Shown: in pieces, positions 1 through 54,254 of the stretch
How the letters are laid out: the number at the start of each line of letters is the position of its first letter
How positions within the stretch are numbered: the first letter of the stretch is position 1
Source: Malacoraja senta
Lineage: Eukaryota
DNA: 64,000 nt
Reading direction: 5' to 3'
Assembly: GCA_038087875.1 (NCBI GenBank)
Contig: CM075991.1
Coordinates: 3,410,001-3,474,000 of the forward strand
The notes under the pieces: generated by a model
What the model was told of the DNA's origin: nothing
Databases searched by the model: none
Seen by the model: the letters and a program-made list of their open reading frames with translations, nothing else
Translations under genes and position numbers: made by a program

Positions 1-250
1 TTTTCTCACAGAGAGTGGTGAGTCTGTGGAATTCTCTGCCCCAGAGGGCGGTGGAGGCAGGTTCTCTGGATGCTTTCAAGAGAGAGCTAGATAGGGCTCT
101 TAAAAATAGCGGAGCCAGGGGATATGGGGAGAAGGCAGGAACGGGTACAGATTGGGGATGATCAGCCATGATCACATTGAATGGCGGTGCTGGCTCAAAG
201 GGCCAAATGGCCTACTCCTGCACCTATTGTCTATTGTCTATTGTCTATTG
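1..250 (+). mobile_element. CR1 LINE 3' end fragment with (CTATTGT)n tail
   Basis: Encodes FSQRVVSLWNSLP...GYGEKAGTG like the CR1 at 34989-36383, then the 3'UTR stem GGGCCAAATGGCCT and a tandem CTATTGT terminus. Confidence 0.9.
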
Positions 251-340
251 TTCTCTTTGATCTTATTTGATTGTGCACGCCAGGTTGATTGCATTCGTCG
301 AAACAGGGCGGACCACGTGAAGTTTGCAATCTCCCACCCC
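251..340 (-). mobile_element. 3'-truncated copy of HDV-like ribozyme-headed short retroposon (family A)
   Basis: Near-identical to ~936-1025. The ribozyme part spans 287-340; the 3' part is replaced by the adjacent CR1 end. Confidence 0.85.
287..340 (-). ncRNA. Minimal HDV-like ribozyme, with one P3 mismatch
   Basis: GGGGUGG GA GAUUGCA AAC UUCACGU GGU CCGCCCU GU UUCGA CGAA UGCAAUC: 7-bp P1 with G1-U wobble, 7-bp P2, canonical CGAA J4/2. Confidence 0.8.
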
Positions 341-565: not shown

Positions 566-883
566 GGGATAGGTTCTAGCGCCTATGAAGCCTTCGTTAA
601 TGTCCTAATACCTGATGCATTCTTATTATCTCCATTTGCTCACCAGCTCAAGTCAAGTTTATTGTCACTTGCACAAGAAGGGTGAGGTACATTGAAAACT
701 ATTGGCACATAGAATCAGCATAGACCTGGTCAGCACACTTGATACAAGATGGCACAGTGGTGCAGTGGTAGAGTTGCTGCCTCACAGTGTTACAGGCCTG
801 GCTGCTGTCTGTATGGAGTTTGTATATTCTCCCTGTGACCGTGTGGGTTTTCTCCTGGTGCTCCAGTTTCATCTGAATGTACT

Positions 884-1025
884 TCTTCTTCTTCTTGTGT
901 ATGGCGTGCACAGCCTAAAGTTGTCGGACAACTTGTTCTATTTGATCTTATTTGATTGTGCACGCCAGGTTGATTGCATTGGTTGAAACAGGGCGGACCA
1001 CGTGAAGGTTGCAATCTCCCACCCC
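884..1025 (-). mobile_element. Full-length HDV-like ribozyme-headed short retroposon (family A), 142 bp
   Basis: TSD ATCTGAATGTACT at 871-883 and 1026-1038, (AAG)n tail, and a 5' end at ribozyme G1. Confidence 0.9.
972..1025 (-). ncRNA. Minimal HDV-like ribozyme
   Basis: GGGGUGG GA GAUUGCA ACC UUCACGU GGU CCGCCCU GU UUCAA CCAA UGCAAUC: P1, P2 and P3 all pair; CPEB3-type L3 and J1/4. Confidence 0.85.
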
Positions 1026-12449: not shown

Positions 12450-12556
12450 AGAGAGAGAGAGGGAGAGAGGGAGAGAGGGAGAGAGGAGAGAGGAGAGAGG
12501 GAGGGAGAGAGGGAGAGAGGGAGAGAGGGAGAGAGGGAGAGAGGGAGAGAGGGAGA

Positions 12557-12643
<87 letters not shown>

Positions 12644-12659
12644 AAAAAAAAAAAAAAAA

Positions 12660-12718
<59 letters not shown>

Positions 12719-14165: not shown

Positions 14166-15947
14166 TCATAGGTTCATAGAGAGATACGGGATGGAAACAG
14201 GCCCTTTGGCCCATCAAGCCTATGCTTGACCATCAACTACCCACTAACCCCATTCTCCACACCTTCTGTCGGCTCTCAGATTCTGTCATTTGCACACTAG
14301 GGGAGATTTATAGTGTCCAAGGACCTTACCAACCTGCATGGCGTTGGACCTTGGGAGGAAACCAGAGCACCCAGAGGAAACCCACGTGGTCACAGGGAGA
14401 ACAAGCAACCTCCCCACAGATAGCACCCGAGGTCAGGATCGAACCTGGATTCCTCACGCAGTGAGACAGCAACTGTACCATCTACCTGCCTGCTCTGCAC
14501 TCCCTTCCCATCTGAGTACCCCCCCACCACCATCTGCTGGCATCTCCCTGCTCTCTCTAGCCATGCAGCAAAGAAACAGGCCCTTCAGCCCATCGTGTCC
14601 ATGCCAACCACCCAGCAATCATCTGCACTAATCCCATCCTCCAGCACTTAATCCATAACCTTATATGCCTTGAATATAGACACAAAATGTTGGAGTAACT
14701 CAGCGGGGCAAGCAGCATCTCCGGACAGAAGGAATGGGTGACGTTTTGGGTCGAGATCCTTCTTCAGACCCATTCCATCTCTCAAGAGATGCTGCCTGTC
14801 CGTCACCCATTCACCACCATCTACAGTTCCTTCCTTTAACCTTTTATGCCTTGTTGATTCAAGTGGTCATCTCGTTATTTCATAAGTGTTGTGAGAATAT
14901 CTGCCTCCACCACTGGCCTCAGTTGCAGTAGCATGGGGTGCATTTGTGCAGTGTTTTGGAATAGAGCCTTGTTTAATTCCCTTTGTCCAGCGATCAGGTG
15001 CCACACTTTGGTCTGCCTCTACCCTTTTACGGCATGGACTTTACTAACAAATGTTTTAAAATAAAAATCCTCTGCTTCCCAAACCCACAATGTCACCGAC
15101 CGCTTCTTAAATCTCACCGAGCTAGCAGTCTTTTTTTCATGAGCGCTCTACGAATTTGCCAGCGCTTGAGTTGTGAGAAGGCGAGGCGCAGCAGAATAAT
15201 ATTGCCCTGTGTCTTGTCAATACCCGATGCCAACACCCACTACCGCTTATTTAAAAAAAAAAGAAACATTTTCATAAAGTTTGTTTGCTGCACAAGACTT
15301 GGCTCAGAGACTTTTAAACGATTCTTAAAAGGCTCGTCGAATAACCAAAGAGCGTTTTTCATACTTGTTTACTCAACATCGATTCTGAAACCTTGCTAGT
15401 GTTTGCATTCACCCTAATCTAATAAACGCTCCCCTTGAACGACTTGACCAACTTCTTCAGTGAATGGACAATTCGTTTCACACCATAAAAATCAACGGAC
15501 ACATCATCTTTCTCCGCTGAGCATCGAGAGAGTCATATGACCCTGGCAGACTTTAAGACCAGCTGTTTCGAAGTCTGTGAAATTGCAAACAGCAATAAAA
15601 GTTAACCGTGGCACAATCAAAGGATTTTTGTGTTGTCGAAAGTGCTTTCTGGTCAGCTTTATTAATGAAAGAAAAAGCGGTGGCTAATATTGTCACTGCA
15701 ACATCATGCGAATTGTTGAACTATTGTAAAACGATTACCACGGTTAAAAGACTATCTTGGTTTTCCCCCCAAAGCAGTAAAACCAAATCTAAGTGGTGGT
15801 ACCCATAATAGTACACTGGTATTTTATTTGAGTTAAACATACTTTCTTTACTCACTGCTCCTATTTGTAAAGGCTGGCATCTAATTTGTTTTAAGAACTG
15901 CTTCACCGGCATGTTCAGCCTCTTTGGCTATAAGATTGCAAGCTTGG

Positions 15948-16116
15948 TCTTCTTATCGAGTCCACACACACACACAGATTAGAAGTTGTTCAGCCAGAGC
16001 TGGACACACTTCTCGGCATCTGCATACAATGGTGTCTGTCTTGTCGCTTCTTGTGCGTGGTGGTGGAAAGATTGGTGGAAACAGGGCCGCGACGTGAACG
16101 CTCTTTCCTTGACCCC
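15948..16116 (-). mobile_element. Full-length HDV-like ribozyme-headed short retroposon (family B), 169 bp
   Basis: TSD GCAAGCTTGG at 15938-15947 and 16117-16126; tail ATAAGAAGA; 5' end at ribozyme G1. Confidence 0.9.
16065..16116 (-). ncRNA. Minimal HDV-like (CPEB3-like) ribozyme
   Basis: GGGGUC AA GGAAAGA GCG UUCACGU CGC GGCCCU GU UUCCA CCAA UCUUUCC: 6-bp P1 with G1-U wobble, 7-bp P2, P3 GCG/CGC. Confidence 0.85.
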
Positions 16117-16817
16117 GCAAGCTTGGGAATTCCATAGTAATGAAAGGCTGGTCACCTCCGCAATCAATCGCACTTTGGTAACCCGAACTCTGGAGAAGCT
16201 GAAGGGACGGCCAAGCTGAGGCAGGGATGGGGAAAGCTCACAGTTGACTATTATTGAGCTATATGGATAGGCTGGGGCTTTCCCACGCTGGAGTGCAGGA
16301 GGCTGAGGAGTGATCTTATAACGGTATCGGGGCATCGATAAAAGATATTTTCAAGAGAGACTTTGATATAGCTCTTAGGGCACATGGTACACTAGCACCA
16401 TCCTACACTCCAGGGACAATTTTGCATTTTGATTATTAGAACCATACAGCATGGATGCAGGCCCTTCTTGCCAATGCTGACATACATGCCCCATCTACAC
16501 GTCCCACCTGTCTGTGGTTGGCCCATAACCCTCTAAACCTATCCATGATGTACCTGTCTAAATGTGTCTTAAACTCAACTACCTCCTCTGATAGCTTGTT
16601 CCATACACTCATCATGCTTTCTGTAAAAAGGTTACCCCTTAGGTTCAAATTAAATCTTTCCCCTCACAAACCTATGCTCTCTGGTCCTTGATTCCCCTAC
16701 TCTGGGCAAGCGCTTATCTAATCTAATCCTCTCATGATTTTGTACACCTCTATAAGTTCACCCCTCATCCTCCTGCGCTCCAAGGAATAAAGTCCTAGCC
16801 TGGTCAACCTCTCCTTA

Positions 16818-24365: not shown

Positions 24366-25034
24366 CTCTTTAATAGCTCAACTAGACACTATTTAAATAC
24401 TGGAAGCAACTTTCTCCGGCAATGCATTGATTCTACAACACTATAATCTGCAATGCACACCACTTTCTGGGCGAAAAGGTCCCTTCCAAATCTCTTATAT
24501 CTTGCTCTTAGTCTATGAGCACTGGCTTTAATCACCTTTGATAAGGGGAGAGGTTGCTGAAATTGCCCCTATCTATTTCCATTCATAATTATACGTACAT
24601 CAGTCATGTTAGAGTCTCTGGATGGAGTGGATGTGGAGAGTGTGTTTGCACTCATGGGAGAGTCTAGGACGAGAGTGTACAGCCCCAGAATAAAAGGACG
24701 TAACATTAAAAAGGTGAGGAGGAATTTCTTTAGTCAGAGGGTGGTGAATCTTGGGAATTCATTGCCACAGACGGCAGTGGAGGCTGTCATTGTGTATTTT
24801 TAAGGCAGAGATTGAGATGGTCTTGATTAGTGAGGGTGTCAATGGTTACGGGGAGAATGGGGTTGAGAGAGAAAAAATGATCAGCCAAGATTGAATGGCG
24901 GAGTAGAATCGATGGGCCGAATGGCCTGATTCTGCTCCTATGTCTTGTGGTCCTATGGTCGGTGGCGTACCGAGGTACTGTGAAAAGCTTTGTTTTGATT
25001 GCTGTTCAATTAGATCAAATAACAGCACGTTAAT

Positions 25035-27165
25035 AATAATAATAATAATAATAATAGATTTTATTTATATAGCGCTTTTCAGGACTCAACGTCACTTTAC
25101 AATTGAGAGTCAGGAATAAACAAAACAAAATAGAGCAGTAAGACAGAGGGGAGGGGAACATGGGACTAAGGGTATGCAGAGGTGAAGAGATGGGTCTTGA
25201 GGGGGGACTGGAAGATGGTGAGGGACTCAGAATTTCGGACCGGTTGTGGGAGGGAATTCCAGAGCCTGGGAGCTGCCCTGGAGAAGGCTCTGCCTCCTAA
25301 AGTGCAGAGGTTTGATTTCGGAGTGGAGAGGAGACCAGCTGATGTGGATCTGAGGGACCGTGAGGGTTGGTAGGGGGAGAGGAGGTCAATGAGATAAGGG
25401 GGGGCCAAGTTGTTGAGGGCTTTGTAGGTGAGGACCAGGATTTTGTAGGTGATCCGGTGGGAAATGGGAAGCCAGTGAAGTTCTTTGAGAACTGGGGTGA
25501 TGTGGTGCCAGGATTTGGTGTGGGTAATGAGTCGGGCGGCTGCATTCTGGACCAGTTGGAGTCGTTTGATGCTGCTGGAATTGATTCCGAAGAGAAGAGA
25601 GTTACAGTAGTCCAGTCGGGAGGAGATGATGCATGGATGAGTCTTTCAGCAGCGGGGGGTGTGAGAGACGATCTGATTTTTGCAATGTTGCGGAGGTGAA
25701 AAAATGATGTTTTGACAACATGGCGGATGTGAGGCTCAAGGGAGAGGGTTGAGTCAAGGATCACGCCAAGGTTGCGTGCCTGAGGAGATGGGGAGACAGT
25801 GGTGCCGTCGATAGTGAGAGTGGGGTTGTTAATTTTAGTGAGTGTTGAATTGGAGCCAATGAGGAGAAATTCTGTTTTGCTACTGTTTAATTTAAGGAAG
25901 TTGAGTTGCATCCAAGATTTGATGGCTGATAGGCAGGAGTTGATATGGGAGAGAGGGGGGTGGTGGGGGGACTTGGTGCTGAGATAGATCTGGGTGTCAT
26001 CAGCATAGCAGTGGAAGTCCAGGTTGAAGTGACGGAGTATATGACCAAGGGGGAGGATGTAGATGATGAAGAGGAGGGGACCAAGAACGGAGCCTTGGGG
26101 AACGCCTTGAGTGACAGTGGCTGTGGCAGAGGTGTGGTTATGGAGAGAGATGAAGTGGGATCGGTTGGAAAGGTAAGAACGGAACCAGCTGAGTGCAGAA
26201 CCTTCAATGCCAAGGTCCCTAAGTCTGGTGAGCAGGATGTTTTGGTTGACGGTATCGAAGGCTGCACTCAGGTCGAGGAGGATGAGGATATTGAGGGAGC
26301 CAGAGTCAGCAGAGGTAAAGAGGTCATTGAGGACTTTGAGGAGAGCAGTTTCTGTGCTATGGAGGGGGCGAAAGCCAGATTGGAGGGGTTCGAATAGGTT
26401 ATACGCGAGGAGGTGGGAATGAAGTTGTGACGCGACGATGCGCTCCAGGGTTTTTGAAAGAAAGGGGAGGTTTGAGATGGGGCGGTAGTTAATGAGAGAG
26501 GAGGGATCAAGACCAGGTTTCTTTAAGATTGGTGTGACAGCAGCAGTTTTGAAAGCAGAGGGGACAGTTCCTTGGGACAATGAGGAGTTGAAAAGATTAG
26601 TGAGGTAGGGGCAGAGAGCAGGGAGGCAGGACTTCAGCAGGGGAGTGGGGAGAGGTTCAAGGGAGCAGGTAGTGGGTTTGGAAGAGCTGATGAGTTTGGA
26701 GATTTCAGTAGGGGTGACCGGGTCAAACTGGGAGAGGAAGCAGTGAGGGGGAGGGGTATGGAGATCAGCGGAGATGTTGAAAGGAGGGGCCTTGGTAGGT
26801 GGTGGCGTAGATGCTGGGGAGTCGGGTACAGGGGATAGGGATTGATAGATGGTGCTAATTTTATCAGCAAAAAAGTGGAGGAATGAGTTGCAGAGATCCG
26901 GAGTGGAGGTAGGGAGAGTGATGGCTCGAGGCTTGAGGAGGTTGCAGACTGTGGAGAAGAGGGTTCTGTGGTTTAGGCAGGGGTCAGTGAATATGGAGGA
27001 GAGGTATGCAGATTTAGCAGCAATGAGGGCATCTTTGTAGGCAGTGAGGTGGAGTTTGTAAGCTTCATGGTGGACTGTGAGAGGTGATTTCTTTATGAGT
27101 CGTTCAAGTCGGCGACCAATCTGTTTCAGCTTACGAAGTGCAGGTGTGTACCAGGGTGAAGATTT
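25035..27165 (-). mobile_element. L2-clade LINE, 5' truncated, with RT domain
   Basis: NYRPISNLPFLSK, LLDLSAAFDTV, GVPQGSVLGP, YADDTQIY; frameshift at ~25625; stop after HLFTSAYP at 25166; (TTA)n tail. Confidence 0.93.
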
Positions 27166-28436
27166 CAATCAAGTTAAATACAATCAAGTTAAACTCAAGC
27201 ACAATAGGTAGAGCAAAGGGGAAGATACAGAGTGCAGAATATAGTTCTCAGCATTGTAGCGCAACAATTCCAAAGACAGTCCAAACAAGGATGAAATAAA
27301 CGAAGGCAGAGATTAAGAGGTTCTTGATTAGCATGGGCGTCAAAGGTTACGGGGAGAAGGCTGGAGAATGGGGCTTTCCCCTGCTGCCCTTCTTGAACGG
27401 AGGGAGCACATTTACCATCTTCCACTTTGATCAACCTGGGACACTGCAACCCCTGCTCACATTCTCTTCACTGTGGACACTAACTGAGCATTTTATACTC
27501 TCCTTGCTGACTGTCTCCAATTCCAATTCCTATCCCACCGAGCCTGTGGCAACCAGTGATCACCCTGAGATTACACCAACACCGTCCAACACACGAGACA
27601 CATTTACAATTTGACATAAGCCAATTAACCTACATACAAGCCTGTACGTCTTTGGAGTGCAAGAGGAAACCTGCAAAGGGGCTGCCTTTGAGCTTCCTGT
27701 TACTTCACCCTGACACACACAGCACTATTTTGGCGGTGCTTTGGTATAAAATGTGGGCTACGGCCTGGCAGCTGCAGTGCTATCTGTTGGAGTCATAGAG
27801 TCACACAGCACGGAAACAGGCCCAACTTGCCCACACCAACCAAGCTGCCCCATCTACACTAGTGAGAAGGAATGGGTGACGTTTCGGATCGAGACCTTTC
27901 TTCGGAAGAAGGGTCTCGTCCCGAAACGTCGCCCATTCCTTCTCTCCAGAGATGCCGCCTGTCCCGCTGAGTTACTCTAGCATTTTGTGTCTATCTCTGG
28001 TTTAAACCAGCATCTGCATTTCCTTCCTAACCATCTACTCAATATTCACAGTCAAGTGAAGAAACTTACTGTATAGCTGACAAGTCAGGATTCTGACTTA
28101 ATTCCAGATAAATGTGTGTAGACATGTCGTAATGTTTCCACAGGCAAATTGAATCGTTTAGACTTTAGACTTTCAGAGATACAGCACAGAAACAGGCCCT
28201 TCACCGCACCGAGTACGAGCCAATCAGCGATCACCCCACACACCAGCACCATCCTACACACTAGGGACAATTTATAATTTTACAGAAGCCAAATGAACCT
28301 ACAAACCTGCACGTCTTTGGAACGTGGGAGGAAACCAGAGCACCCGGAGAAAACCCACATGGTCATGGGAAGAAAGTACAAATTCCACACAGACAGCACC
28401 TGTAGTCAGGATTAAACTCGGTCTCTGGCGCTGTAA

Positions 28437-34280: not shown

Positions 34281-34988
34281 GGACATGTAAGACTTTGGTC
34301 CAAGAGCTGGAAGATGGGATTGACTCAGATGGATCCACTGGTCAGGATGGAATTGGTGGAGTGAATATATCTATGTGTGACCCATGACCCTGTGACACTA
34401 AATTATCTTCTCGACTGAAAGGAACGTCAAGTCGATGGATGGTGTAGAGGGTAGACAATGTGGCAGGGCAGGATGAGGTGGACAAGAACGAGAGCTTAAT
34501 CAGGGATGAGTCGCACCCCATCCACTCCCTCTTCTCCCCTCTCCCATCAGGCAAAAGGTATAGAAGTGTGAAAACGCACGCACCTCCAGATTCCTCCCAG
34601 CTGTTATCAGGCATCTGAACCATCCTACCAACAACTAAAGAGCAGATTGGACTTTACTGGACTTTATCTTGCGCTAAACGTTATGTCTAGGAAGAAACTG
34701 CAGATGCTGGTTTACACCGAAGTTAGACACACAATGCTGGAGTGTTCCATAGCTGCATGAAAATAACGAGGAGAGAGAAATGCAGAAAAATGCCAACACA
34801 ATAGGGAGTATATTACCTTTCATTTCCAATAATTGTCCTGTCATAACATGTCCGCCACATGGTTTGAAGTGTGGCCTTCGAACTGGGATGGCATGCTGCT
34901 TTTGGGCAAGTGATGCCTCGAGCAATATTTTGGCTAAGATTACAAGGCCCACAACTCCAATAAGACCAAATGTAAACTTTCCAGACTG

Positions 34989-36383
34989 ATGTCAGCGTTA
35001 GTTCCTGAGGATTGGAGGGTAGCAAACGTAACCCCACTTTTTAAGAAGGGAGGGAGAGAGAAAACGGGGAATTACAGACCAGTTAGTCTAACATCGGTAA
35101 TGGGGAAACTGCTAGAGTCAGTTATTAAAGATGGGATTGCAGCACATTTGGAAAGTGGTGAAATCATTGGACAAAGTCAGCATGGATTTACGAAAGGTAA
35201 ATCGTGTCTGACGAATCTTATAGAATTTTTCGAGGATGTAACTAGTAGAGTGGATAGGGGAGAACCAGTGGATGTGTTGTATCTGGACTTTCAGAAGGCT
35301 TTCGACAAGGTACCACATAAGAGATTAGGATACAAACTTAAATCACACGGTATTGTGGGTTCAGTATTGATGTGGATAGAGAACTGGCTGGCAAACAGGA
35401 AGCAAAGAGTAGGAGTAAACGGGTCCTTTTCACAATGGCAGGCAGTGACTAGTGGGGTACCGCAAGGCTCAGTGCTGGGACCCCAGCTATTTACAATTTA
35501 TATTAATGAACTGGATGAGGGAATTGAAAGCAACATCTCCAAGTTTGCGGATGACACTAAGCTGGGGGGCAGTGTTAGCTGTGAGGAGGATGCTAGGAGA
35601 CTGCAAAGTGACTTGGATAGGCTGGGTGAGTGGGCAAATGTTTGGCAGATGCAGTATAATGTGGATAAATGTGAAGTTATCCACTTTGGTGGCAAAAACC
35701 GGAAGGCAGACTATTATCTATATGGTGGCCGATTAGGAAATGGGGAGATGCAGCGAGACCTGGGTGTCATGGTACAGCAGTCATTGAAAGTAGGCATGCA
35801 GGTGCAGCAGGCAGTGAAGAAAGCGAATGGTATGTTGGCTTTCATAGCAAGAGGATTTGAGTATAGGAGCAGGGAGGTTCTACTGCAGTTGTACAGGGTC
35901 TTGGTGAGACCACACCTGGAGTATTGCGTACAGTTTTGGTCTCCAAATCTGAGGAAGGACATTATAGCCATAGAGGGAGTGCAGAGAAGGTTCACCAGAC
36001 TGATTCCTGGGATGGCAGGACTTTCATATGAAGAAAGACTGGATAGACTTGGCTTATACTCGCTAGAATTTAGGAGATTGAGAGGGGATCTTATAGAAAC
36101 GTACAAAATTCTTATGGGGTTGGACAGGCTAGATGCAGGAAGATTGTTCCTGATGTTGGGGAAGTCCAGGACAAGGGGTCACAGCTTAAGGATAAGGGGG
36201 AAATCCTTTAAGACTGAGATGAGGAAAAACTTTTTCACACAGAGAGTGGTGAATCTCTGGAACTCTCTGCCACAGAAGATAGTTGAGGCCAGTTCATTGG
36301 CTATATTTAAGAGGGAGTTAGATGTGGCCCTTGTGGCTAAAGGGATCAGGGGGTATGGAGAGAAGGCAGGTACGGGATACTGA
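34989..36383 (+). CDS. CR1 LINE ORF2 reverse transcriptase portion, 5' truncated, uninterrupted frame
   Basis: [53 protein letters not shown]; 3'UTR and TATG-type tail to ~36483. Confidence 0.93.
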   Translation: MSALVPEDWRVANVTPLFKKGGREKTGNYRPVSLTSVMGKLLESVIKDGIAAHLESGEIIGQSQHGFTKGKSCLTNLIEFFEDVTSRVDRGEPVDVLYLDFQKAFDKVPHKRLGYKLKSHGIVGSVLMWIENWLANRKQRVGVNGSFSQWQAVTSGVPQGSVLGPQLFTIYINELDEGIESNISKFADDTKLGGSVSCEEDARRLQSDLDRLGEWANVWQMQYNVDKCEVIHFGGKNRKADYYLYGGRLGNGEMQRDLGVMVQQSLKVGMQVQQAVKKANGMLAFIARGFEYRSREVLLQLYRVLVRPHLEYCVQFWSPNLRKDIIAIEGVQRRFTRLIPGMAGLSYEERLDRLGLYSLEFRRLRGDLIETYKILMGLDRLDAGRLFLMLGKSRTRGHSLRIRGKSFKTEMRKNFFTQRVVNLWNSLPQKIVEASSLAIFKRELDVALVAKGIRGYGEKAGTGY

Positions 36384-36984: not shown

Positions 36985-38454
36985 TTACAATGGGTTAATG
37001 GGAAAAGGGTGCAGCATTTGACATCAACTCCCAATGTTCTGGTCAACATGTATTCTGAGTGCCCTCCCAGATGGCACGCACTGGCGACATACTTTTTCCG
37101 CCAGACTACCCTACACACACCAGGGACAATTTACATTTATATCAATCCAAATAACCTACAAACCCATACGTCCTTGGAGTGTGGGAGGAAACCGAAGCTC
37201 TCGGAGAAAACACAACCAGGTCACGGGGAGAACGTACAAACTCCGTACAGACAAGCACCCGTAGTCAGGATCGAACCCGAGTCTCTAAGGCTATAGCTCT
37301 ACCGCTGCGCCACCGTGCCGCCCATAAACACACACCATTTAACACACTACCCCTTGCTGCAACCCATTCATTAACACGCACAATCGATCGCTGTGTATGT
37401 ACAGCTAGCCCTTTTCTTTTGGGAACACCGGGGCCTCGAAGGGCACTCAAAATGTTTAGTGCTGAGCGCCAAAGTCTTACTTTCTTCATGTTCTTGCATG
37501 CTGGAAACTGAACCACAGGTCTCCAAAGGTTTGCAGCCTTCAGAAAGCGATTCTTAAAGATTTTGAAAGGGACTCCCGCTGGTAAGAGTTTCTTCATGTC
37601 AGGAGATATGTTTTATGGAGAAGGCTTACACGAATATCAACCAGGGCTTCAAATAAAAAAATACTAGAAATGATGAATGATGATAAGCCCAGATGTAAAT
37701 CATTTCATTATTTAGTGCTGTTGCAGCTTTACATCTAACTTCACATGCAAGCCTTGAAAAGTAGGACAGGTAATCTGATACAGACCTCGTTTTGTTTCAC
37801 TGCCTGCAGACTGCAAAGCTTGATCCAAAAAGCTACATTGCTTAGGAGATGCTTTCTTTGACTGTGCTGCCTACCTACGCTTCACTGAAGATAGACACAA
37901 AAAGCTGGAGTAACTCAGCGGGACAGGCAGCATTTCTGGAGAGAAGGAATGGGTGATGTTTCGGGTCGAGAAGCTTCACCATCTTGTTCCCACACGTCAC
38001 ACTGCACATCCCCAGCGAAAGGACATAACCAAGCAGACTAGTTTGGGAACACTCAGCAGGTCAGGCAGAATCTGTGGATGGAGAAACAGTTCATCTTTCA
38101 GAACAGAAGGATTCGAGAACTGAATTTGTATTTCTCCAAGTTCTTGTACGCGTTTTATGACCACAGTTCACTGTGACTCAAAATGCTGGAGTAACTCAGC
38201 CGGACGGGCAGCATCTCTGGAGAGAAGGAATGGGTGACGTTTTGGGTCGAGACCCTTCAAACTGAAAGTCACAGGAAAGGGAAACAAGAGATATAGACGA
38301 TGAGTGAAAAATGAGTGAAAAATATGCAAAAAAGTAACAATGACCGCTTTGATTTCCTCCCACATTCCAACGATGTACAGGTTGGTAAGTTAATTGGGGT
38401 TGCAAGGGTCTTGACCCGAAACGTCACCCATTCCTTCTCTCCAGAGATGTTGCC

Positions 38455-39430
38455 TGACCTACCTTTCACTCTAATGGGGACGTACACATCCTGATCTCCC
38501 TTCAGTACACTTTTAAAAACATCCCACTTGGCCGATGTTCCTTTCCCCTCAAATAACCTGCTCCAGTCAAATTGAGCGAGACCTTCTCTCATATCCTCAA
38601 AGTTGACCTTACCCCAGTTGAGCATTTTAACACGTGGACCCTCTCCGTCCCTATATATTACTATCTTAAACCTAATCGAACTGTGGTCACTGGTCCCAAA
38701 AGGCTCCTTCACACACACTTCATTAACGTGCCCTTCCCAATTTCCCAATACTAGATCCAGCGTTGCCCTCTCACGTGTGGGGGCCTCCACATACTGCTTA
38801 AGAAAACTCTCCTGAACACTTTTGAGGAAACACTTCACGCTATGATTTTCCCAGTCTATATTGGGAAAGTTGAAATTCCCTACTACACCAAACTTATTTG
38901 ACCTGCAATTGTCTGTAATCTCCCAGCACATTTGTTCTTCTAATTCCCGTTGACTATTTGGGGGTCTGTAGTACATCCCCAACAAGGTGATCATCCCTTT
39001 CTTGTTCCTCAGCTCCACCCATATAGTCTCACTAGACGAACCATCTGTAATGTCACCTCTGAACACAGCCGTGACATCCTCCTTAACCAACAATGCAACC
39101 CCACCTCCTCTTTTTCCCTCACCCCTGTCTGTCCTGAAGCTCCTGTGCCCCGCAACATTGAGCTGCCAGTCCTGCCCCTCGCTTAACCAGGTTTCAGTCA
39201 TGGCTATAACGTCCCAGTCGTTCATACCTATCCACGCCCTAAGCTCATCTGCCTTACCCGTCAAGCCCCTTGCATTAAAATACATGCAGTTTAAACTAAC
39301 CCTCCTTCCTCGCTCTCTGGCTTTTTGCCTATTCTGTCCATTGACCTTTCCCACACCACCCTCCATACCAACTTCTAGCCTCTTCTGTGCCTCTGTCCAG
39401 CACGAGATCCCACCCCCCTGCCAATGTGCG
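38455..39430 (-). pseudogene. CR1 ORF2 N-terminal APE endonuclease fragment
   Basis: YFNARGL, AMTETWL, GGGVALLVK, YYRPP, GNFNFP, LDLVL, SDH motifs. Confidence 0.9.
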
Positions 39431-40945
39431 GGGATCGCTAGTCGGTGTGGACTCGGTGGGCCGAGGGGCCTGTTTCCGTGCTGGATCTCTAAACTAAACT
39501 GAACCACTGGCACTACATTCACATTCCAACCATCTGCCATAATCACTATCACAGCTTTCAACTAACAGTTTATTTATCAAGCCCTGTTCCAAAGGGAAAA
39601 AAAACATTATTTTTCCTCCATAAATTTAAAAATGCTTTGTTTTTCAGAGAACACCCTGTTTGTCTTGGCTCTCACAGAACCTAATGCTTTATCCAGCCTT
39701 TCACATCAGCAGCGACCTGATTACTGTTTAGATCCCTGGATTTCTATTTCTCTTTCAAGTATAAATGCAACATTCAAGCTATTTGTTTTCTTGACTATAA
39801 ATTGGACATTGCTTGTAAAATGGCGTTCCAAATACAAATTTATTTAACAATCTATTTTCTTCCAGAGAAGGCAGGGCAGATGTGAAATTTGATTGACTGT
39901 ATGAGTGCAGAAAATGAAGATTGCAAGCTGGAGAATAGATTTACATTTCCTATGTTCTTCTCCAAGGATATAATCAATTCTCTGGAAATGTCAATGTATG
40001 TCATATTTTAATTTAAAATTGCTCTAATTTAATATAACAAATGTTGATTGGGCAGCTTACAACCCAGCAGTATGTGTATTGATTTCTCAAACTCCAAGCA
40101 ACCCTTCCATCCCCTCTCTCTCCACCCCTCCCCCACCCAAGTGGTTGTAGGAGCTTCAGTCGTCTTGTTAAGTCTCATTGTCAGTAACTCGTTTTCACCT
40201 AGCTCACAGCTAAAAATGGCCTGTTTCCTTTACCATCATAACTTTTTCGCATATTTTTCATTCATTTGTTCTATATCTCTCTCCATCACTGATTATATAT
40301 CTCGTTTCCCTTTCCCCTGACTCTCTGTTTGAAGAAGGGTCTTGACCCAAAACGTCACCTATCCATGTTCTCCAGAGATGCTGCTTGACCCGACCCGCTG
40401 AGTTACTCCAGGTTTTTGTGTCTATCTTCAGTTAGTTGATCACCCCTTGTTTATTATTTCTCCACCTATTATAGTGTCTCTCACTATCAGCATCTAGATG
40501 TATCAATGCCATGCCTTCTGTTTAGTGACAAGTAACTTATAATATAGATTGAGAGTTATAAAACCAAAACATAACGTTAGTGGAATTGGTTTCACACAGA
40601 GGGTCATAGGAATATGGAACAAGCTGCCAGAGGATGTTGGAGTAACTCAGCGGGACAGGCAGCATCTCTGGAGAGAAGGAATGGGTGACGTTTTGGGTCG
40701 AGACCCTTCTTCAGTCTGCCTGTGGAAGTAGTTGAGGCAGGTCCAATAACAATTCCCAGTGATGCTCCCAAATATCTCCCAGGGGTGAAGAAGATTGCAA
40801 AACATGGTGAAGACTGCCCTGTCCATCACTTGGTTCACCCTGGTCCTTCCTTCTTCTCAATGCTCCCGCCTGGCAGAGGATACAGAAGTGTGCACCACCA
40901 GACTCCGTCCCTATCTCTTGTTATCCCTTTCCCCTGACTCTTAGT

Positions 40946-45611: not shown

Positions 45612-48600
45612 ACACAGTGTTACAACATCACAGATATGGGGAAAGTGCAGATTTTAAAAAGTGCAAGGTCCATAGTGAGGTAGGTTGGAGGTTGAAGTAA
45701 GCGGTCTAGTTATATTTAAAAATTAAGTTACAAGACTCCTAGCTCTGTGAAAATATTCATCTCTTATTTACCCTTTTTTTGCCTTTGTTTTCTCCGACTG
45801 ATGCTTTAATGAAATTCTAAACTTTGCGAGATCATTAACAAAATTGGGGATATATATCCTCCTGTCTGTGCGAAGGACTTGAAAATACTGAGCTGAGATT
45901 AGTTTTTAACAAGAACCCTGTAAGATAATTCCACCATTACACATCAGCCACAGGAAAAGCACTAGACATGTGAATTTATTATGGCGGTAAGGTGTCATAA
46001 CAATTTTGTACTCGGTAAACATTTCTCACCAGCCGTGAAGAGGGAAGTAATTAAAGATTCATTGGACAAGTTGAATGCGTTTTCCTACTTGCCAATGTTT
46101 TCATGACCTCTGCTCTTCCAAGCTGTTGAATCCTTGCAGGCTATGGTTTTATCGGTCCTCATCCATCACATTGACAGGCCTACAAACATCAGGAACATCG
46201 GCTAATATTCTCCTCTTGAATTAGAGACGTTACCTTCTGAACCGTCTGAATTTTATAGTCGACAGGGCAGTACTCTGCATATCGCCAACTTGGACAATTT
46301 TTACATTTTTATCAAGCCAATTAATCAATCCAATTAACCTACAAACCTGCACGTCTTTGGAGTGTGGGAGGATACCGAAGATCTCGGAGAAAACCCACGC
46401 AGATCACGGGGAGAACGTACAAACTCCATACAGACCTGGATCTCTGGCGCTGCATTTTGCTGTAAGGCAGCAACTCTACCACTGTGCCACCGTGACTGCT
46501 AAATCCTATGTGTAGGAAGAAACTGCAGATAGACACAAAAAGTTGGAGCAACTCAGTGGGACAGGCAGCATCTCTACGAGTGAAGGAATGGGTGACGTTT
46601 AGGGTCGAGACCCTTCTTCAGGAACTGCAGACACTGGTTTAAACCGAAGACAGGCGCAAAATGCCGGAGTAACTCTGCGGGCCAGACAGCGAGAAAAGGT
46701 ATAGGTGACCAGCGATCCCCGCACATTAACACTACCCTACACACACCAGGGACAATTGTGACATTTACCAAGCCAATTCACCTACATACCTGTACGTCTT
46801 TTGGAGTGTGGGAGGAAACCAAAGATCTCATAGAAAACCCACGCAGTGACAGGGAGAATGTAGAGACCTTTCTTCAGATTGGCAGGCTGTTACTCAAATC
46901 TTGCTCCAAGGAGAATCCTTGATTATAGTCTATTACAAGCTGTTTCTAATTTGTTCTAATGACTTAGATAAAGCCTAATGTAGCCAAGTTCATCATCGTT
47001 AAAAAAAAATCTAGCAGGGATAGAGAGCTCAAAGGAGGGCACTGTCTAAGATTTCTACTTTACATATAAGTTTAGATCTATTATTGTCACCTGTACCGAG
47101 GTGCAGTGAAAAGTAGCCTCAGAATGAAAGGACGATGAGGAGGATTTTCTTTAGTCAGAGGGTGGTGCATCTGTGGAATTCTTTGCCACAGAAGGCTGTC
47201 GAGGCAAAGTACGTGGATATATCTAATGCAGCGATAGGTAGATTTTACTTCGGAGTCACGTGAGTCACTACGTGAAGAAGACCCCGTCCAGCCGCACACG
47301 CGTCATATCGATCAGACGCATAGCGTTCATGACCGTGTGTGGAGGAGCAGGAGCTCCTCCGACCGGTGAGTAAAGCAAACGTAAAGCAAAAGTCGGAAGG
47401 TAAGTGGGTTTACTTTCACTTACAGGAGCGTTTCCTTCCCATGCAGACTTGTTGGTGGAGCTCCACACAAGTTTATTATGGAGAAAGGGGAAGGAGAGGT
47501 GGCCAGGGATGCACCGTAGTAAAACCCCAGATCCTAAGGGTAGCGGGCGTCAGTCAAGGGAGTCAGTGGCAGCGAAGCCATTAGCTCCCGTTGTGGTCGA
47601 GTGTGCCGTTAAACCGCCGGCGGCGGGGCGCAAGGCTGGACAAAAGTCGGCCCGACCTGTAGACTCGGATGAGTCAGACCCGGAGGTATACCCTCCTCAG
47701 GCAGGAAATAATATTGCACTGCAAGGGTCAAAACTTTAGAACTCCTGATGGGGAAGATGATTTATAAAGAACCCCCACAGGAGGATTTAAGTCGGTGTTG
47801 GCCAATGGAGGATATAGCACAGGGGGTGCCTTGGATGGGACAGGCACAAGGGTGGCCTACAGGAGAGCCATCACAAATGCCTGTGCAGAAACATTACAGT
47901 GGTTGGCCTACAGGAGAGCCAGTACCCAAAAATGCCAGAAAAAAGGCAATATATGTGTTGGCCTATTGGAGAGCCAGTATTAGAAATGCCTGAACAAAAG
48001 GCAGCACAAACGTGCAATGACAAATGTGCCAGCACCGACAATAAAAAGAGAAAAAATAATGAAGCGTTGGCCTAGAATTGAGCCAGCGCCAGCAGCACCT
48101 GAAACAGGGCTGCCTATCCGGGGGCCTACAAGAGAGCCCGCGCAGGGGGAATCTGGCAGAGACTTACCAGAAACAGGGGAGCCAGAAATTACCCAACATA
48201 AAGATTAATATCTAGATTCAGATGATGATTTATATGAGGACCAGAGCCCATTATCAGAGCTAAAATGTTCCAAGGCTGGCACAAAAGTTTGCTGTTCCCA
48301 GAGTAACAGGGGAACCTTTGAGAGAGGAAATAGCTATGACTATAAATTATCTACTCTCCCATCAGCCCCAGGAATAAACTATGGATGAGACTATCAAAAA
48401 GTATGAGACCCCGGAAAATTGTGAATTGCTAGCAGTTCCAGCAGTGAATAACTTGAGATGGGTTATTTGAGCAGTGGTTTACGCTCACAAGAAATGAAAT
48501 TACAACGTGTGCTGAAATTGCTGGGGTCAGGCATTACGGCATTGCCAGTGGCATTGGATGAAGATTTTATATCGGATTCACAACAAAATGCCTTAGCACT

Positions 48601-48949
48601 CATGTGTAGTGCGCACTTTGAAATAAATTGTATTCGTAAAAATGCAATAAGACCAAATATTCATCCTAAAGTATGCAGGCTCTGCAAACCATCCAATATA
48701 CAAATGCCTAAATCTGCTTTTTGGAGAAAATCTAGCAAAGAAGCTAAAGGATCACCTATGCTGAGCAGAGCGGTGCGATTGCAGTATCCCTACAGGCGAA
48801 ATGCTGGTGCTGGAGAAGGAACAAGCCTATCATTCTCGTATACACGTTGACGTGCTGCACCAAGGATACGTGGAGGTTACAATGTGCCTACTAGAAGGGG
48901 ACAACAATTGCCGGTGGCAAACCCCGAGGTAGGGGGGCTTGGTCTGGTA

Positions 48950-50845
48950 AGAAACACAACAAATGTTTCACACTCACAAATAGGGGGAAGGTTACGATTC
49001 TTCCTAAAAGAATGGCAATCAATAACAAATGATTCATTTATTCTATGTAGCATTGTAGGATTCAAAATTGAGTTCTCTCCACGTTTGGATCTTCCAATTC
49101 AGCATAATTCAAACTGGTCACGGAATTTCTCAAAGGAAGAGAATAAGTTGATCAAGGGAGAATTGAAAATTTTATGCGGAAAAGGGGTAATAGAAAAGTC
49201 AGTAGAACAACACCATCAGTTTGTGTCATATATTTTCCTAGAACAAAAAAGGATGGTAGATGTAGAATCATTTCGGATCTGACAAATCTTAACCTTTATG
49301 TACAATAGAAACATTTCAAAATGGAAACATTTACAAATGCCATTCAGCTGGTCACAAAGAATTGCTACATGGCAAGCACAGATCTGCAAAATGCATATTA
49401 TTCTGTGGCAATGCATGGTAATGATCAAAGATATTTGTAATTTAGATGGATGAGTCAGTTATGGCAATTTAAAGCATTGCCCAATGGCCTGACTTCAGCA
49501 CCAAGATTATTCACTAAATTACTCAAACCAATTTTAGCTCTGCTAAGAGCTGAGGGCCATGTATTAATGGTTTATTTAGATGATATTCTGATTGTAGGAC
49601 ACTTTGGCTACAGCAAAATTGTCCGTATCTAGAGTCAAATACATTTTGAAAAAATGGGTTTCATTATTCACCTACAAAAATCAAAATTGTTACCAAGCAA
49701 GAACATTGATTACCTAGGGTTCACAATTAACTCTGAACACATGGTAATCACCTTGCCAAAAGAGAAGGCTGCAGTTAATTGAAGATTGCACTAAACTCAT
49801 AAACGAGGACAAGCCTTCAATTAGAGAAGTGGCAAGCTTGCTGGGCAAATTAATTGCTGGGTTTCCAGCTGTCAGGTTTGGACCATTGCATTATCAATGT
49901 TTGCAGAGGGCTAAGGTACAAGCATTAAAAATGAATACAGGGCATTTTGACAGGCCCATGAAATTAACAATTGGGTCCATTACAGAAATAGAATGGTGGA
50001 TTAACAATGTCTCTAATGCTTCCAGAAAAGTTCTGGTAGAAACACCTTCTGTCATTCTACAGACTGATGTAAGTGCTCTTGGATGGGCGCAACTAACACG
50101 ATTTCCAGCTGTGGAGGTAGGTGGAATGTCGATGAAGTACCTTTGCAGGAAAATTAAGGAATAAATTACCTAGAGCTGTTAGGAACATTTCATGGCCTTA
50201 AAGCTTATTGCACTAATATGGGAAATGTGCATGTTCAGGTACAGGTTGACAATACTACAGCTGTAGCATACATAAATCACATGGGTGGTATCAAATCAGA
50301 ATCATGTGATAGATTGGCAAATGAAATTTGGACCTGGTGTATTGTCAGGAAAATCTGGCTGTCAGCAATATATTTACCAGGAAAATTTAACACAATTGCA
50401 GACAAAAGATCACGTAAATTTAATGATAAAACAGAATGGATGTTACATCAGGAAATATTTAAGCAAATTGTAACACGATTTGGAATGCCAAAGATTGATT
50501 TGTTTGTATCAAGACTAAACCACCAATTGCCTAAGTATGTGTCATGGGAAACTGATCCTGGTGCAGTAGCGGTAGATGCTTTCTCGCTACATTGGGGTGA
50601 TATGTTTCTGTATGCATTTCCTCCATTTTGTTTAAATCAATAGATGCATACAGAAAATTAAACAGGACTCAGCCTCGGGGATTTTGGTGGTACCAGATTG
50701 GCCTACACAGCTGTGGTATCCACTGGTGTTAAACATAATCAAAGAACCCCTTATGGTTATTCCAAAGCAGGTGAAACTGCGTGTAAACCCTGTAACTAAT
50801 GAACCACATCCTTTACATGATCGTATTGGTTTGTTGATTTGCAGA
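48950..50845 (+). pseudogene. DIRS RT, RNase H and adenine methyltransferase-like region
   Basis: GGRLRFFLKEW, DLQNAYY, LPNGLTSAPRLFTK, YLDDILI, QTD.S..GW, DNTTAVAYINHMGG, IDLF.S..N...YAFPPF; stops and frameshifts. Confidence 0.92.
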
Positions 50846-53506: not shown

Positions 53507-53810
53507 GGGGTGGCAAGATGGTGCAGCGGTAGAGTTGCTGCCTCACAGCACCAGAGTTCCGGGTTCGTTCCTGACTATGTGTGCTGTCTGTACGGAGTTT
53601 GTATGTTTTTCTCGTGACCGCGTGATTTTTTCCGGGTATTCCGGTTTCCACCCACTTCCCAAAGACATACAGGTTTGTAGGTTAATTGGTTTCGGGACAA
53701 ATTGTAAATTGTCCCTAGTGCGTAGGATGGTGCCAGTGTACGGGAATCACTGGTCGGGGCGGACTCGTTGGGCCGAAGGGCCTGTTTCCACTCTATCTCT
53801 AAACTAAATG
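53507..53810 (+). mobile_element. HE1-like tRNA SINE, full length
   Basis: A box TGGTGCAGCGG, B box GGTTCGTTCC, tail GGGCCGAAGGGCCTGTTTCC...CTAAACTAAA. Confidence 0.85.
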
Positions 53811-54254
53811 AAACACATTTCATCATTATACATATGCCCCATTTGCATTTCTCTTGCAGTGGCTCTGAACATTTCAGCAGCTGTAGAGAAGTGTCACCAT
53901 CACTTTCTGAGAAAGAAAGTAATTTGTAAACTAAAGAGTATAAAATGTAAAAAAAATTCGCACTACATTTCATCGAGAAAATCATAAGGAATGAATTATA
54001 GAGTAAATAACATACACATTTAGAAATTAACCAGTCAATTTAATAAAGATTTAATGGAAAATATTGCATCATTTAAGTTCCACACCGGAGACAAAAGAGG
54101 CTACAGATGCTGGAATCTTAACAAAACACACAGTGCTGGAGGAACTCAGCGGGTCAGGCAGCATCTGACAGACTATCTTTTGGGTCGGAACCCTTCTTCA
54201 GACTGCTGGATTGAGTGTATCAAATTAAAACTGTACATTGTCCTTTGTTCATTT

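What the first reader, a model, noticed from the sequence alone, without database searches (positions are those of the whole stretch)
15948..16116. Second ribozyme-headed retroposon (family B) with a CPEB3-like core
Seen: the minus strand reads GGGGUC-AA-GGAAAGA-GCG-UUCACGU-CGC-GGCCCU-GU-UUCCA-CCAA-UCUUUCC. A 10-bp TSD (GCAAGCTTGG) again abuts G1, and the tail is AUAAGAAGA. Compared with family A, P2 and P3 change almost completely yet still pair (GAUUGCA/UGCAAUC vs GGAAAGA/UCUUUCC; ACC/GGU vs GCG/CGC). L3, the GU after P1 and CNAA stay fixed, which is covariation support for the double pseudoknot. From memory, AGCGUUCACGUCGC followed by ...CCCUGU also occurs in the mammalian CPEB3 ribozyme. 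Inference: mobile vertebrate elements of this type are a candidate source of that intronic ribozyme. The 3' part reads ...LYADAEKCVQLWLNNF-stop, possibly the last codons of the partner LINE.
Basis: partly seen in the sequence, partly recalled or inferred. Interest (0 to 1): 0.92.

Follow-up and report, generated by a model that had tools for sequence, protein, structure and literature searches.

The report
Skate retroposon headed by CPEB3-type ribozyme
A 169-base jumping element in a skate-like genome starts with a miniature self-cutting RNA of the same type as the one in the mammalian CPEB3 gene, and the same genome holds a complete jumping gene with the full-size version, pointing to where the mammalian ribozyme may have come from.

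Summary
Observation confirmed. Window 16116..15948 (-) is a 169-nt retroposon ("B") with a 10-bp target duplication abutting G1 and an (AAG)n tail. Its first 52 nt fold as an HDV-like double pseudoknot without P4. B has at least 1462 candidate copies in this 1.94-Gb genome, and family A at least 2552. RAG2 places the genome among skates.

Searching the genome with Rfam's "Mammalian CPEB3 ribozyme" model gave 39 matches above the curated cut-off. The best (64 bits, cut-off 35) heads a 3.1-kb LINE encoding endonuclease and reverse transcriptase, with the same (AAG)n tail and an 11-bp target duplication. Seven head families covary strongly: 18 of 26 pairs change on both sides.

B's last codons match the extreme C-terminus of this LINE family, so B is a two-part, ORF-less LINE derivative. 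A relative on metagenome contigs has P1, P2 and P3 identical to the mammalian consensus.

Self-cleavage, expression and the direction of descent are untested. The window's own copy scores below the Rfam cut-off.

The parts
16117..16126 (-). 5' target-site duplication CCAAGCTTGC, directly upstream of G1
   Evidence: only two copies in the window, flanking the element
16065..16116 (-). 52-nt HDV-like (CPEB3-type) ribozyme without P4; predicted cleavage 5' of G at 16116
16111..16116 (-). P1 5' strand GGGGUC; G1 forms the G.U wobble with U at 16083
   Evidence: pairing counted
16102..16108 (-). P2 5' strand GGAAAGA (after J1/2 AA at 16109-16110)
   Evidence: 6 of 7 P2 pairs change on both sides across families
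16089..16101 (-). P3 GCG / L3 UUCACGU / P3' CGC, identical to the Rfam CPEB3 consensus
16083..16088 (-). P1 3' strand GGCCCU
16072..16082 (-). J1/4 GU (16081-16082), 5-nt linker UUCCA in place of P4 (16076-16080), J4/2 CCAA with the presumed catalytic C at 16075
   Evidence: the second letter of CNAA varies among A copies; the 4-nt J4/2 with catalytic C57 in CPEB3 is from passages of PMC4836649
16065..16071 (-). P2 3' strand UCUUUCC
16049..16060 (-). 5' strand CCACGCACAAGA of a long-range stem closing the body
   Evidence: 3' domain fold -35.2 kcal/mol, z -2.6
15979..16029 (-). last 16 codons plus stop of a LINE ORF (LYADAEKCVQLWLNNF*)
15962..15978 (-). 3' strand of the stem, with a (TG)n run 5 nt longer than in most other copies
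   Evidence: (5 letters left out at 15971 in most contigs)
15955..15962 (-). terminal motif GACUCGAU just before the tail; compare GACACGA in the LINEs
15948..15954 (-). tail AAGAAGA; (AAG)n of varying length in other copies
15938..15947 (-). 3' target-site duplication CCAAGCTTGC
882..1025 (-). family A copy: 54-nt P4-less ribozyme, hairpin body, (AAG)5 tail; TSD TACATTCAGAT at 1026-1036 and 871-881
252..340 (-). 3'-truncated family A copy, abutting the (CTATTGT)4 tail of an unrelated LINE 3' end on the + strand

Best explanation
[quoted passage not shown] It keeps only the LINE's 5' head and its 3' end. The 3' end comprises the last ~16 codons, the stop codon, about 24 nt of 3' UTR ending in GACUCGAU, and the (AAG)n tail. 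The head is a CPEB3-type HDV-like ribozyme in which P4 has been replaced by a 5-nt linker. Proposed mechanism: a copy with no promoter of its own is transcribed as part of a longer host transcript. The ribozyme cuts just 5' of G1 and frees an RNA that starts with the ribozyme itself. The LINE protein, supplied in trans, recognises the 3' end and tail, nicks a target and copies the RNA to its very 5' end. That produces the ~10-bp target duplication abutting G1. What is shown: the anatomy, copy number, 5' boundary, duplications, covariation, the autonomous LINE with the full-size head, and homology of the C-terminal codons. What is inferred: self-cleavage itself, read-through transcription, and mobilisation by this LINE lineage.
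For: Copy number is. The 5' boundary at G1 also shows in another organism's contigs. The fold is supported on an alignment of 14 heads from seven families: 93.2% of cells are paired against 37-44% for slid partners, 18 of 26 pairs change on both sides, and 0 of 500 shuffles reach the observed values on four of the five measures (72 of 500 for further pair types). L3 is identical to that of CPEB3, with GU after P1 and a 4-nt CNAA (CPEB3 features from passages of PMC4836649). There is no tRNA, 5S or 7SL match at E<=10 around B or A. Full-size heads reach 64.2, 59.7, 54.5, 51.4, 50.6, 48.2, 47.7 and 45.8 bits, and one B copy reaches 43.7 bits, on RF00622; that is 9 of 9 loci scanned, and 39 of 59 scored genome matches are over the cut-off. 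The LINE runs about 3.14 kb from the head to (AAG)4, with TSD ACAGAACAAAA and a 940-aa ORF carrying Exo_endo_phos and RVT_1. B's P2 differs from the LINE's at 3 pairs, all compensated. B's C-terminal peptide aligns to the last residues of P0008 and P0005. The LINE, a metagenome relative and B share GAC(N)CGA before the tail.
Against: No RNA data: no listed run is on record as RNA, and the runs laid were contigs, which cannot show starts. The window's copy scores only 26.9 bits (local) on RF00622, and family A scores nothing. Cleavage by a P4-less head of this type has not been tested. The bodies of B and A share nothing with the sequenced LINE copy beyond the 15-nt core and the tail. Junction-negated pattern searches found only indel or truncated SINE variants and no LINE with B's head or 3' end. 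The peptide match is short (12-13 residues). The recurrent A variants CCACCCU and CUGCCCU are CpG-decay products, not evidence of selection. In one search the pair 39-67 is an alignment artefact for A and B, which have no P4.
Confidence: 0.8

Rival explanations
1. The likeness to the mammalian CPEB3 ribozyme is convergence forced by the small HDV-like core, not common descent.
For: A review states that only about six nucleotides are invariant in HDV-like ribozymes and leaves convergence open (passages of PMC8256844). Family A keeps L3 but has a different P3 and gives no RF00622 match. The window copy is below the cut-off.
Against: Helix sequences are free to vary: the seven skate families carry six different P2 sequences. 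Yet a LINE relative on metagenome contigs has P1, P2 and P3 identical to the mammalian consensus (55.6 bits). Skate family E shares the consensus P1, nearly the same P4 letters, and a P2 that differs by one compensated pair. Matches reach E 3e-16.
Confidence: 0.12
2. The head is a relic that no longer cleaves. The uniform 5' end at G1 comes from an internal promoter that starts transcription there, as Pr77 does in L1Tc, or from Pol III.
For: L1Tc combines a promoter and a ribozyme in the same 77 nt (abstract and passages of PMC3383444). P4 is missing. No RNA evidence was obtained. There is no TTTT run inside A or B that would stop Pol III (sequence).
Against: Every core feature of the fold is kept in the consensus of two young families (A 97-98% and B 94-96% identical among copies), with compensated helix changes between them. 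No tRNA, 5S or 7SL likeness. P4-less HDV-like ribozymes exist in nature (passages of PMC10879173). A promoter and a ribozyme are not exclusive.
Confidence: 0.12
3. B is moved by a different, unidentified LINE, not by the 3.1-kb LINE found here. That LINE shares only a head type and a simple-repeat tail with B.
For: B's C-terminal codons are closer to P0008 and P0005 (CVQLWLN) than to the sequenced skate LINE copy. The bodies are unrelated. No LINE with B's ends was found.
Against: Same (AAG)n tail, same duplication length of about 10-11 bp, the same GAC(N)CGA motif before the tail, and the same head class. No other (AAG)n-tailed LINE 3' end was seen in about 250 kb of sampled loci plus the window. 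Only one LINE copy was read in full, so subfamilies may exist.
Confidence: 0.3

Closest known systems
Mammalian CPEB3 ribozyme (Rfam RF00622)
   Same: Same fold. L3 UUCACGU, P3 GCG/CGC, GU after P1 and a 4-nt J4/2 starting with C are the same. The LINE heads of this genome match the whole 78-position model at 44-64 bits.
   Different: CPEB3 is a single conserved copy in an intron and is stated not to be found outside mammals (passages of PMC8233481). Here the ribozyme is the 5' end of thousands of dispersed mobile copies in a cartilaginous fish. B lacks P4, and the window copy is below the cut-off.
L1Tc and its 263-nt non-autonomous partner NARTc (Trypanosoma cruzi), and ingi/RIME
   Same: An HDV-like ribozyme at +1 of both the LINE and a short ORF-less element that shares only the LINE's 5' head and 3' end. 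Cleavage defines the 5' end (abstract and passages of PMC3383444).
   Different: Protist versus vertebrate. The L1Tc head is 77 nt with P4, doubles as a promoter, and has a poly-A tail. Here the head is 52-54 nt without P4 and the tail is (AAG)n.
R2 SIDEs (Drosophila)
   Same: Internally deleted elements that keep the ribozyme head and the 3' end and use the R2 protein in trans (abstract of PMC3414825; passage of PMC6765202).
   Different: R2 inserts only in 28S rDNA and uses a restriction-like endonuclease. B inserts genome-wide with ~10-bp duplications, and its LINE has an APE endonuclease.
Bipartite non-autonomous LINEs of the RTE and Vingi clades
   Same: They keep only the 5' and 3' parts of compact LINEs. 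Vingi-2_Gav is 3128 bp, against about 3.14 kb here (passages of PMC5786205).
   Different: [quoted passage not shown] The clade of the skate LINE was not resolved here.
Minimal (P4-less) HDV-like and theta ribozymes
   Same: A double pseudoknot with P4 replaced by a few nucleotides (passages of PMC10879173).
   Different: Those are reported as nearly 99% confined to bacteriophages, with origin and function otherwise unknown. Here P4-less heads sit on about 6000 retroposon copies in a vertebrate genome.

Membership tests
HDV-like self-cleaving ribozymes | Nested double pseudoknot: P1 and P2 interleaved, P3 inside P1, P1.1 | tested here: met
   93.2% of cells paired against 37-44% when slid. P1 has 3, P2 6, P3 2 and P4 7 pairs with changes on both sides. 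The C-G of P1.1 is invariant in 14 of 14.
HDV-like self-cleaving ribozymes | G1 at the cleavage site, closing P1 as a G.U wobble | tested here: met
   G 16116 with U 16083. Pair 1-36 is GU in 7 sequences, other in 2, and gapped in 5.
HDV-like self-cleaving ribozymes | Catalytic cytosine at the start of a short J4/2 before the P2 3' strand | tested here: met
   CCAA at 16072-16075. It reads CNAA in A copies and CGAA or CUAA in heads with P4. The role of the C is inferred by position from C57 of CPEB3 (PMC4836649 passages).
HDV-like self-cleaving ribozymes | Self-cleavage leaving a 5'-hydroxyl on G1 | not testable with these tools
   Only indirect evidence: element 5' ends and target duplications coincide with the predicted site.
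Rfam RF00622 'Mammalian CPEB3 ribozyme' | Score at or above the gathering cut-off of 35 bits | tested here: not met
   The window copy gives no hit at gathering and 26.9 bits local. Other B copies do pass (L103 43.7 bits), as do the LINE and the other heads at 45.8-64.2 bits.
Rfam RF00622 'Mammalian CPEB3 ribozyme' | P4 hairpin between J1/4 and J4/2 | tested here: not met
   In B and A it is replaced by UUCCA or UUCRA. It is present in families C to G.
Rfam RF00622 'Mammalian CPEB3 ribozyme' | Single orthologous copy in an intron of the CPEB3 gene | tested here: not met
   Dispersed on many chromosomes, each copy with its own target duplication. The CPEB3 locus of this genome was not examined.
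Classical SINE | Head derived from tRNA, 7SL or 5S RNA carrying an internal Pol III promoter | tested here: not met
   No such Rfam match at E<=10 in 501-nt stretches around B and A.
Bipartite non-autonomous LINE (NARTc, RIME, SIDE, Vingi-N type) | 5' end homologous to the LINE's 5' end | tested here: met
   B's head aligns with the LINE head. J1/2, P3, L3 and GU are the same, and the 3 P2 differences are all compensated.
Bipartite non-autonomous LINE (NARTc, RIME, SIDE, Vingi-N type) | 3' end homologous to the LINE's 3' end, no ORF, same tail and target duplications | tested here: met
   C-terminal codons match (short, E 0.001 and 0.012). GAC(N)CGA motif and (AAG)n tail. Duplications of 9-13 bp. 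The exact parent LINE was not found.
Vingi or RTE clade (for the 3.1-kb LINE) | Placement in a reverse-transcriptase tree with named reference elements | not tested
   Only the architecture is known: single ORF, APE plus RT, no RNase H hit, a C-terminal Cys/His motif, about 3.14 kb. Relatives of 960-1000 aa occur in aphids, psyllids, crabs and sea urchin.

The most novel reading that the evidence does not exclude
The mammalian CPEB3 ribozyme is a domesticated 5' head of this compact LINE lineage (Vingi- or RTE-like), or of one of its ORF-less derivatives. The lineage is still represented by young copies in skates and occurs in other animals. These heads would be the outgroups that studies of CPEB3 ribozyme evolution say are missing. 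The P4-less heads of A and B would be the first abundant minimal HDV-like ribozymes of a vertebrate.
Probability: 0.6. Interest if true: 0.93.

Novelty: new variant of a known kind. Interest (0 to 1): 0.87.

Why it matters
The origin of the CPEB3 ribozyme is open. A 2021 study states that it has not been found outside mammals, so deeper ancestors cannot be inferred for lack of outgroups (passages of PMC8233481). Here sequences that pass Rfam's own cut-off for that family form the 5' ends of an autonomous LINE and several derived families in a cartilaginous fish. A related LINE on metagenome contigs has the same P1, P2 and P3 as the mammalian consensus. That makes 'a retrotransposon head was exapted in the CPEB3 intron' directly testable by phylogeny and by inspecting the intron's flanks.

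It also shows natural P4-less HDV-like ribozymes at thousands of copies in a vertebrate. It would add a ribozyme head to a compact LINE type that is now being engineered for gene insertion, if the LINE proves to be Vingi. It gives a clean natural series, from full head to mini head, for studying what P4 does.

Tried and rejected
1. Looking for the parent LINE by patterns that keep an anchor from A or B and forbid the neighbouring SINE letters (flanks read). All deviants read were indel, truncated or interrupted SINE copies.
2. (AAG)n-tailed LINE ends in about 250 kb of sampled loci plus the window: none. The LINE fragments in the window have other tails.
3. Word-based protein search with the 45-aa frame-0 peptide, longer proteins: no candidate. 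This is weak evidence; the match was later found by aligning the family's C-termini.
4. Expression: no RNA holder was listed among the public runs. The four runs laid were contigs, and no table of starts could be made. Nothing can be said about expression.
5. Earlier findings of this scan: three look-ups, nothing held.
6. ESM Atlas look-up of the RT gave only generic RVT_1 clusters and no clade.
7. Family E census by DNA search: only 3 further places cover the head. The other hits belong to an unrelated repeat in the query's 3' part.
8. Rfam at gathering on 40 metagenome LINE loci: 3 hits, one element on three near-identical contigs, and 0 in the second batch. My own model found 6 hits in 80 loci. 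About 37 loci reach the expected 5' end and 5 of them carry a hit; the sixth hit, L178, starts short of it. Most relatives therefore show no detectable head; they may be truncated, divergent or headless.
9. A pattern for heads whose P3 starts with C or U found only 2 mutated A copies.
10. The idea that the A variants CCACCCU and CUGCCCU show selection on P1 was rejected: both are CpG-decay products.
11. Papers not held: PMC3308841 (Ruminski 2011) and PMC3002237 (Kojima 2011). What I say of them is recalled or taken from papers that cite them.

Full report
THE OBSERVATION. The sequence is GGGGUC AA GGAAAGA GCG UUCACGU CGC GGCCCU GU UUCCA CCAA UCUUUCC, followed by a 117-nt body ending in GAUAAGAAGA. 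The 10-mer CCAAGCTTGC occurs only twice in the window, at 16126-16117 and 15947-15938, touching both ends of the element; 0.13 occurrences are expected by chance. The two family A copies used for comparison are at 1025..882 (-) and 340..~252 (-). The first is complete, with an 11-bp duplication TACATTCAGAT and an (AAG)5 tail. The second is truncated.

IT IS A HIGH-COPY RETROPOSON. The window lies in a 1.94-Gb assembly. A search with the 169 nt gave 1462 first-look candidates. All 40 of 40 scored are 94-100% identical over the full length. Family A gave 2552 candidates at 97-98% identity. The shared core pattern occurs 3254+2874 times, against 0+2 for the reversed control. Some of those hits are overlapping registers of one copy.

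In the loci fetched, copies align from the same 5' end at GGGG, and the flanks differ from there. Exact target duplications of 7 bp or more, mostly 9-13 bp, were found by script in 17 of 26 non-duplicate B loci and 17 of 25 A loci. They abut G1 directly in 13 and 11 of these, and lie within 1-2 extra bases in the rest. The remaining loci have imperfect duplications or none detectable.

Nine coded organisms in public runs hold the element. In one run, 292 contigs have unrelated loose ends at exactly 16116. The window copy has the family's majority head. It differs from most copies by one base at 16003 and by a (TG)n run 5 nt longer.

THE HEAD IS AN HDV-LIKE RIBOZYME WITHOUT P4. The 52 nt parse as follows:
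- P1: 6 bp, with G1.U
- J1/2: AA
- P2: 7 bp
- P3: 3 bp
- L3: UUCACGU
- GU after P1
- a 5-nt linker where P4 would be
- J4/2: CCAA
- the P2 3' strand

The nested P1+P3 part is worth -9.5 kcal/mol and P2 -5.7 kcal/mol. In A copies the second letter of CNAA is C, G, A or U. That fits a catalytic C followed by a free position and two A's, as in CPEB3, which has a 4-nt J4/2 with C57. The U20.G25 wobble and the weak P1.1 of CPEB3 are described in passages of PMC4836649.

No tRNA, 5S, 7SL or other head-type RNA matches either element at E<=10. P4-less 'minimal' HDV-like ribozymes are known, but are reported as almost confined to bacteriophages (passages of PMC10879173).

LIKENESS TO CPEB3. The whole-window Rfam scan at gathering found nothing. 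With the E-value threshold, B gives a local match to RF00622 of 26.9 bits (cut-off 35), E 4.9e-5, model positions 13-46. Family A gives none. Searching the whole genome with RF00622 changed the picture. Of 59 scored candidates, 39 are above the cut-off, all matching model positions 1-78, with scores up to 64.2 bits.

I fetched 15 of them, four with long flanks and one of those then extended. A cmscan of nine loci gave nine hits above the cut-off:
- 64.2 bits: family C
- 59.7 and 54.5 bits: family D
- 51.4, 50.6 and 47.7 bits: family E
- 48.2 bits: family F
- 45.8 bits: family G
- 43.7 bits: a B copy

Families C to G have a P4 hairpin. Family E is old, with few copies that are 84-88% alike. It has the consensus P1, a P2 one compensated pair away, and nearly the consensus P4 letters. 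Family C has the consensus L3 and P3.

COVARIATION. On a MAFFT alignment of 14 heads from the seven families, I counted the pseudoknotted structure I wrote down:
- 93.2% of cells are paired, against 36.7-43.8% when partners are slid by 1-3 columns.
- 18 of 26 pairs change on both sides.
- 0 of 500 column shuffles reach the observed value for paired cells, for pairs and cells with a change on both sides, and for the covariation score; 72 of 500 reach it for further pair types.

By helix, the pairs with changes on both sides are P1 3 of 7, P2 6 of 7, P3 2 of 3 and P4 7 of 8.

Caveats: the copies are related and some are decayed. For A and B the P4 columns are an alignment artefact at pair 39-67. 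The recurrent A variants in the P1 3' strand are CpG-decay products.

THE AUTONOMOUS ELEMENT. Family C heads a LINE. In the copy read in full (L092+L095):
- A 73-nt ribozyme is followed after about 30 nt by an ATG.
- The open frame is 940 aa, with Exo_endo_phos (36.8 bits), Exo_endo_phos_2 and RVT_1 (113.6 bits).
- An in-frame stop follows, then 88 more open codons holding a Cys/His motif.
- The element ends in ...GACACGA plus (AAG)4.
- It is about 3.14 kb long and flanked by ACAGAACAAAA on both sides.
- This copy's 5' end departs from GGGGAUC in its first bases. Three other copies start with GGGGAUC where their flanks diverge.

Relatives of the RT are single proteins of about 960-1000 aa on contigs of about 3.0-3.6 kb. 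Those that carry names come from aphids, psyllids, crabs, a sea urchin and a pseudoscorpion, at 39-67% identity.

The size and single ORF fit the Vingi or RTE clades. Vingi-2_Gav is 3128 bp, and Vingi-1 is described as a compact single-ORF APE element without RNase H (passages of PMC5786205 and PMC13708176). I did not place the LINE in a tree. [quoted passage not shown]

WHAT B IS. B's head is the LINE head minus P4. J1/2, P3, L3 and GU are the same, and three P2 pairs differ, all compensated. B's body shows no nucleotide similarity to the LINE copy beyond the 15-nt core and the tail.

The alignment of LINE proteins shows C-termini such as ...CVQLWLNHI and ...AKSCVQLWVKHNI. B's AEKCVQLWLNNF-stop aligns with residues 985-996 of 996 of P0008 (E 0.001). 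YAD-AEKCVQLWL aligns with 974-986 of 990 of P0005 (E 0.012).

About 24 nt after the stop comes GACUCGAU and then the tail. The skate LINE has GACACGA before its tail, and so does a metagenome relative. A 12-bp long-range stem closes B's body, and a 10-bp stem closes A's.

B is thus a bipartite, ORF-less LINE derivative of the NARTc, RIME, SIDE or Vingi-N kind (PMC3383444, PMC3414825, PMC5786205). I found no LINE in this genome with exactly B's head or 3' end.

BEYOND THIS GENOME. A scan of metagenome contigs with the RT alignment returned 80 loci. Rfam at gathering on 40 of them gave 3 hits, which are one element on three near-identical contigs, and none in the second 20.

That head scores 55.6 bits. 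Its P1, J1/2 (bar one weakly conserved letter), P2 and P3 are identical to the mammalian consensus. L3 differs by one letter, P4 is different, and J4/2 is CUAA. The element has an 11-bp duplication abutting G1 and an (ATC)n tail.

A model built from the seven skate heads found these three hits plus three weaker heads in the 80 loci (30.3, 28.9 and 18.3 bits). Five lie 29-68 nt upstream of the expected LINE 5' end, and the sixth near the start of its contig. By my estimate 37 of the 80 loci reach that far. Most relatives therefore show no detectable head.

WHICH ORGANISM. The genome has one RAG2 gene (480 bits, open frame). Its protein is 97% identical to that of a skate, 84-85% to other rays, 74-82% to sharks, 68% to a chimaera and about 53% to mammals.

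WHAT IS NEW.
- Already known: HDV-like ribozymes at the 5' ends of non-LTR retrotransposons, and short derivatives that keep them.
- Not found in the held library: any report of CPEB3-type heads on mobile elements, or of the CPEB3 ribozyme outside mammals. I searched, with listings and passages only.
- A review says structure-based searches found 'CPEB3 related sequences' in non-mammals, meaning HDV-like ribozymes in general (PMC8256844).
- I could not see Rfam's full alignment, Repbase, or the two key papers that are not held.

VERDICT. The finding is real and its reading is right in substance. The step from 'same family of sequences' to 'source of the mammalian ribozyme' is inference, which I put at about 0.6. 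Cleavage and expression are untested.

Noticed in passing
window 47270-61430, both strands: Eight of the 13 TTCACGT hits belong to an unrelated repeat with ends like TTCACGTAGTCACTCACGTGACTCCGAAGTAAAAT, in inverted pairs about 250 bp apart (for example 51983/52237, 59262/59522, 61172/61424). It looks like a short element with terminal inverted repeats.
   Followed up: no
window 25297-27168 (-), tail at 25031-25054: A LINE fragment with a 623-aa open frame (RVT_1, 126 bits) and a (TAA)8 / (ATT)n tail. This is a different LINE family from the ribozyme-headed one.
   Followed up: partly
window 34938-36383 (+) and 38269-39561 (-): Two more LINE pieces. One is an RT (114 bits) whose 3' end carries the widespread ...GGCCGAATGGCCTACTCCTGCACC motif. 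The other is an APE endonuclease frame (47 bits).
   Followed up: partly
window 224-340: The truncated family A copy (minus strand) abuts the (CTATTGT)4 tail of a LINE 3' end lying on the plus strand, so one element inserted into the other.
   Followed up: partly
L094 (C19:3349247-3349335) and L105 (C1:59793712-59793800): Family D: CPEB3-type heads with a long 29-nt P4 (59.7 and 54.5 bits), followed by a shared ~40-nt body unlike the LINE. It may be another non-autonomous family. Its 3' end was not read.
   Followed up: partly
after the P2 3' strand in B, D, E, G and in the metagenome element L111: The first bases after the ribozyme are ACCAC in five otherwise different families (B, D, E, G, L111). 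Family F has UCCAC, and the LINE (family C) and A differ. The conserved extension is unexplained.
   Followed up: no
run X1, joint 16116 to 15949: One contig joins the end of one B copy to the start of another, head to tail, 'going back 168'. It is either a tandem dimer or an assembly artefact.
   Followed up: no
window 12501-12715: A dense simple-repeat block: (GAGGGAGA)8, (GA)38, (ACAG)12.
   Followed up: no
L126 (metagenome contig), positions 12-84: A LINE relative (41% identical in the RT) whose contig starts 11 nt before an HDV-like head with P3 ACC/GGU, as in family A, and L3 UUCUCGU, as in family E. This suggests A and B took their heads from different sublineages.
   Followed up: partly
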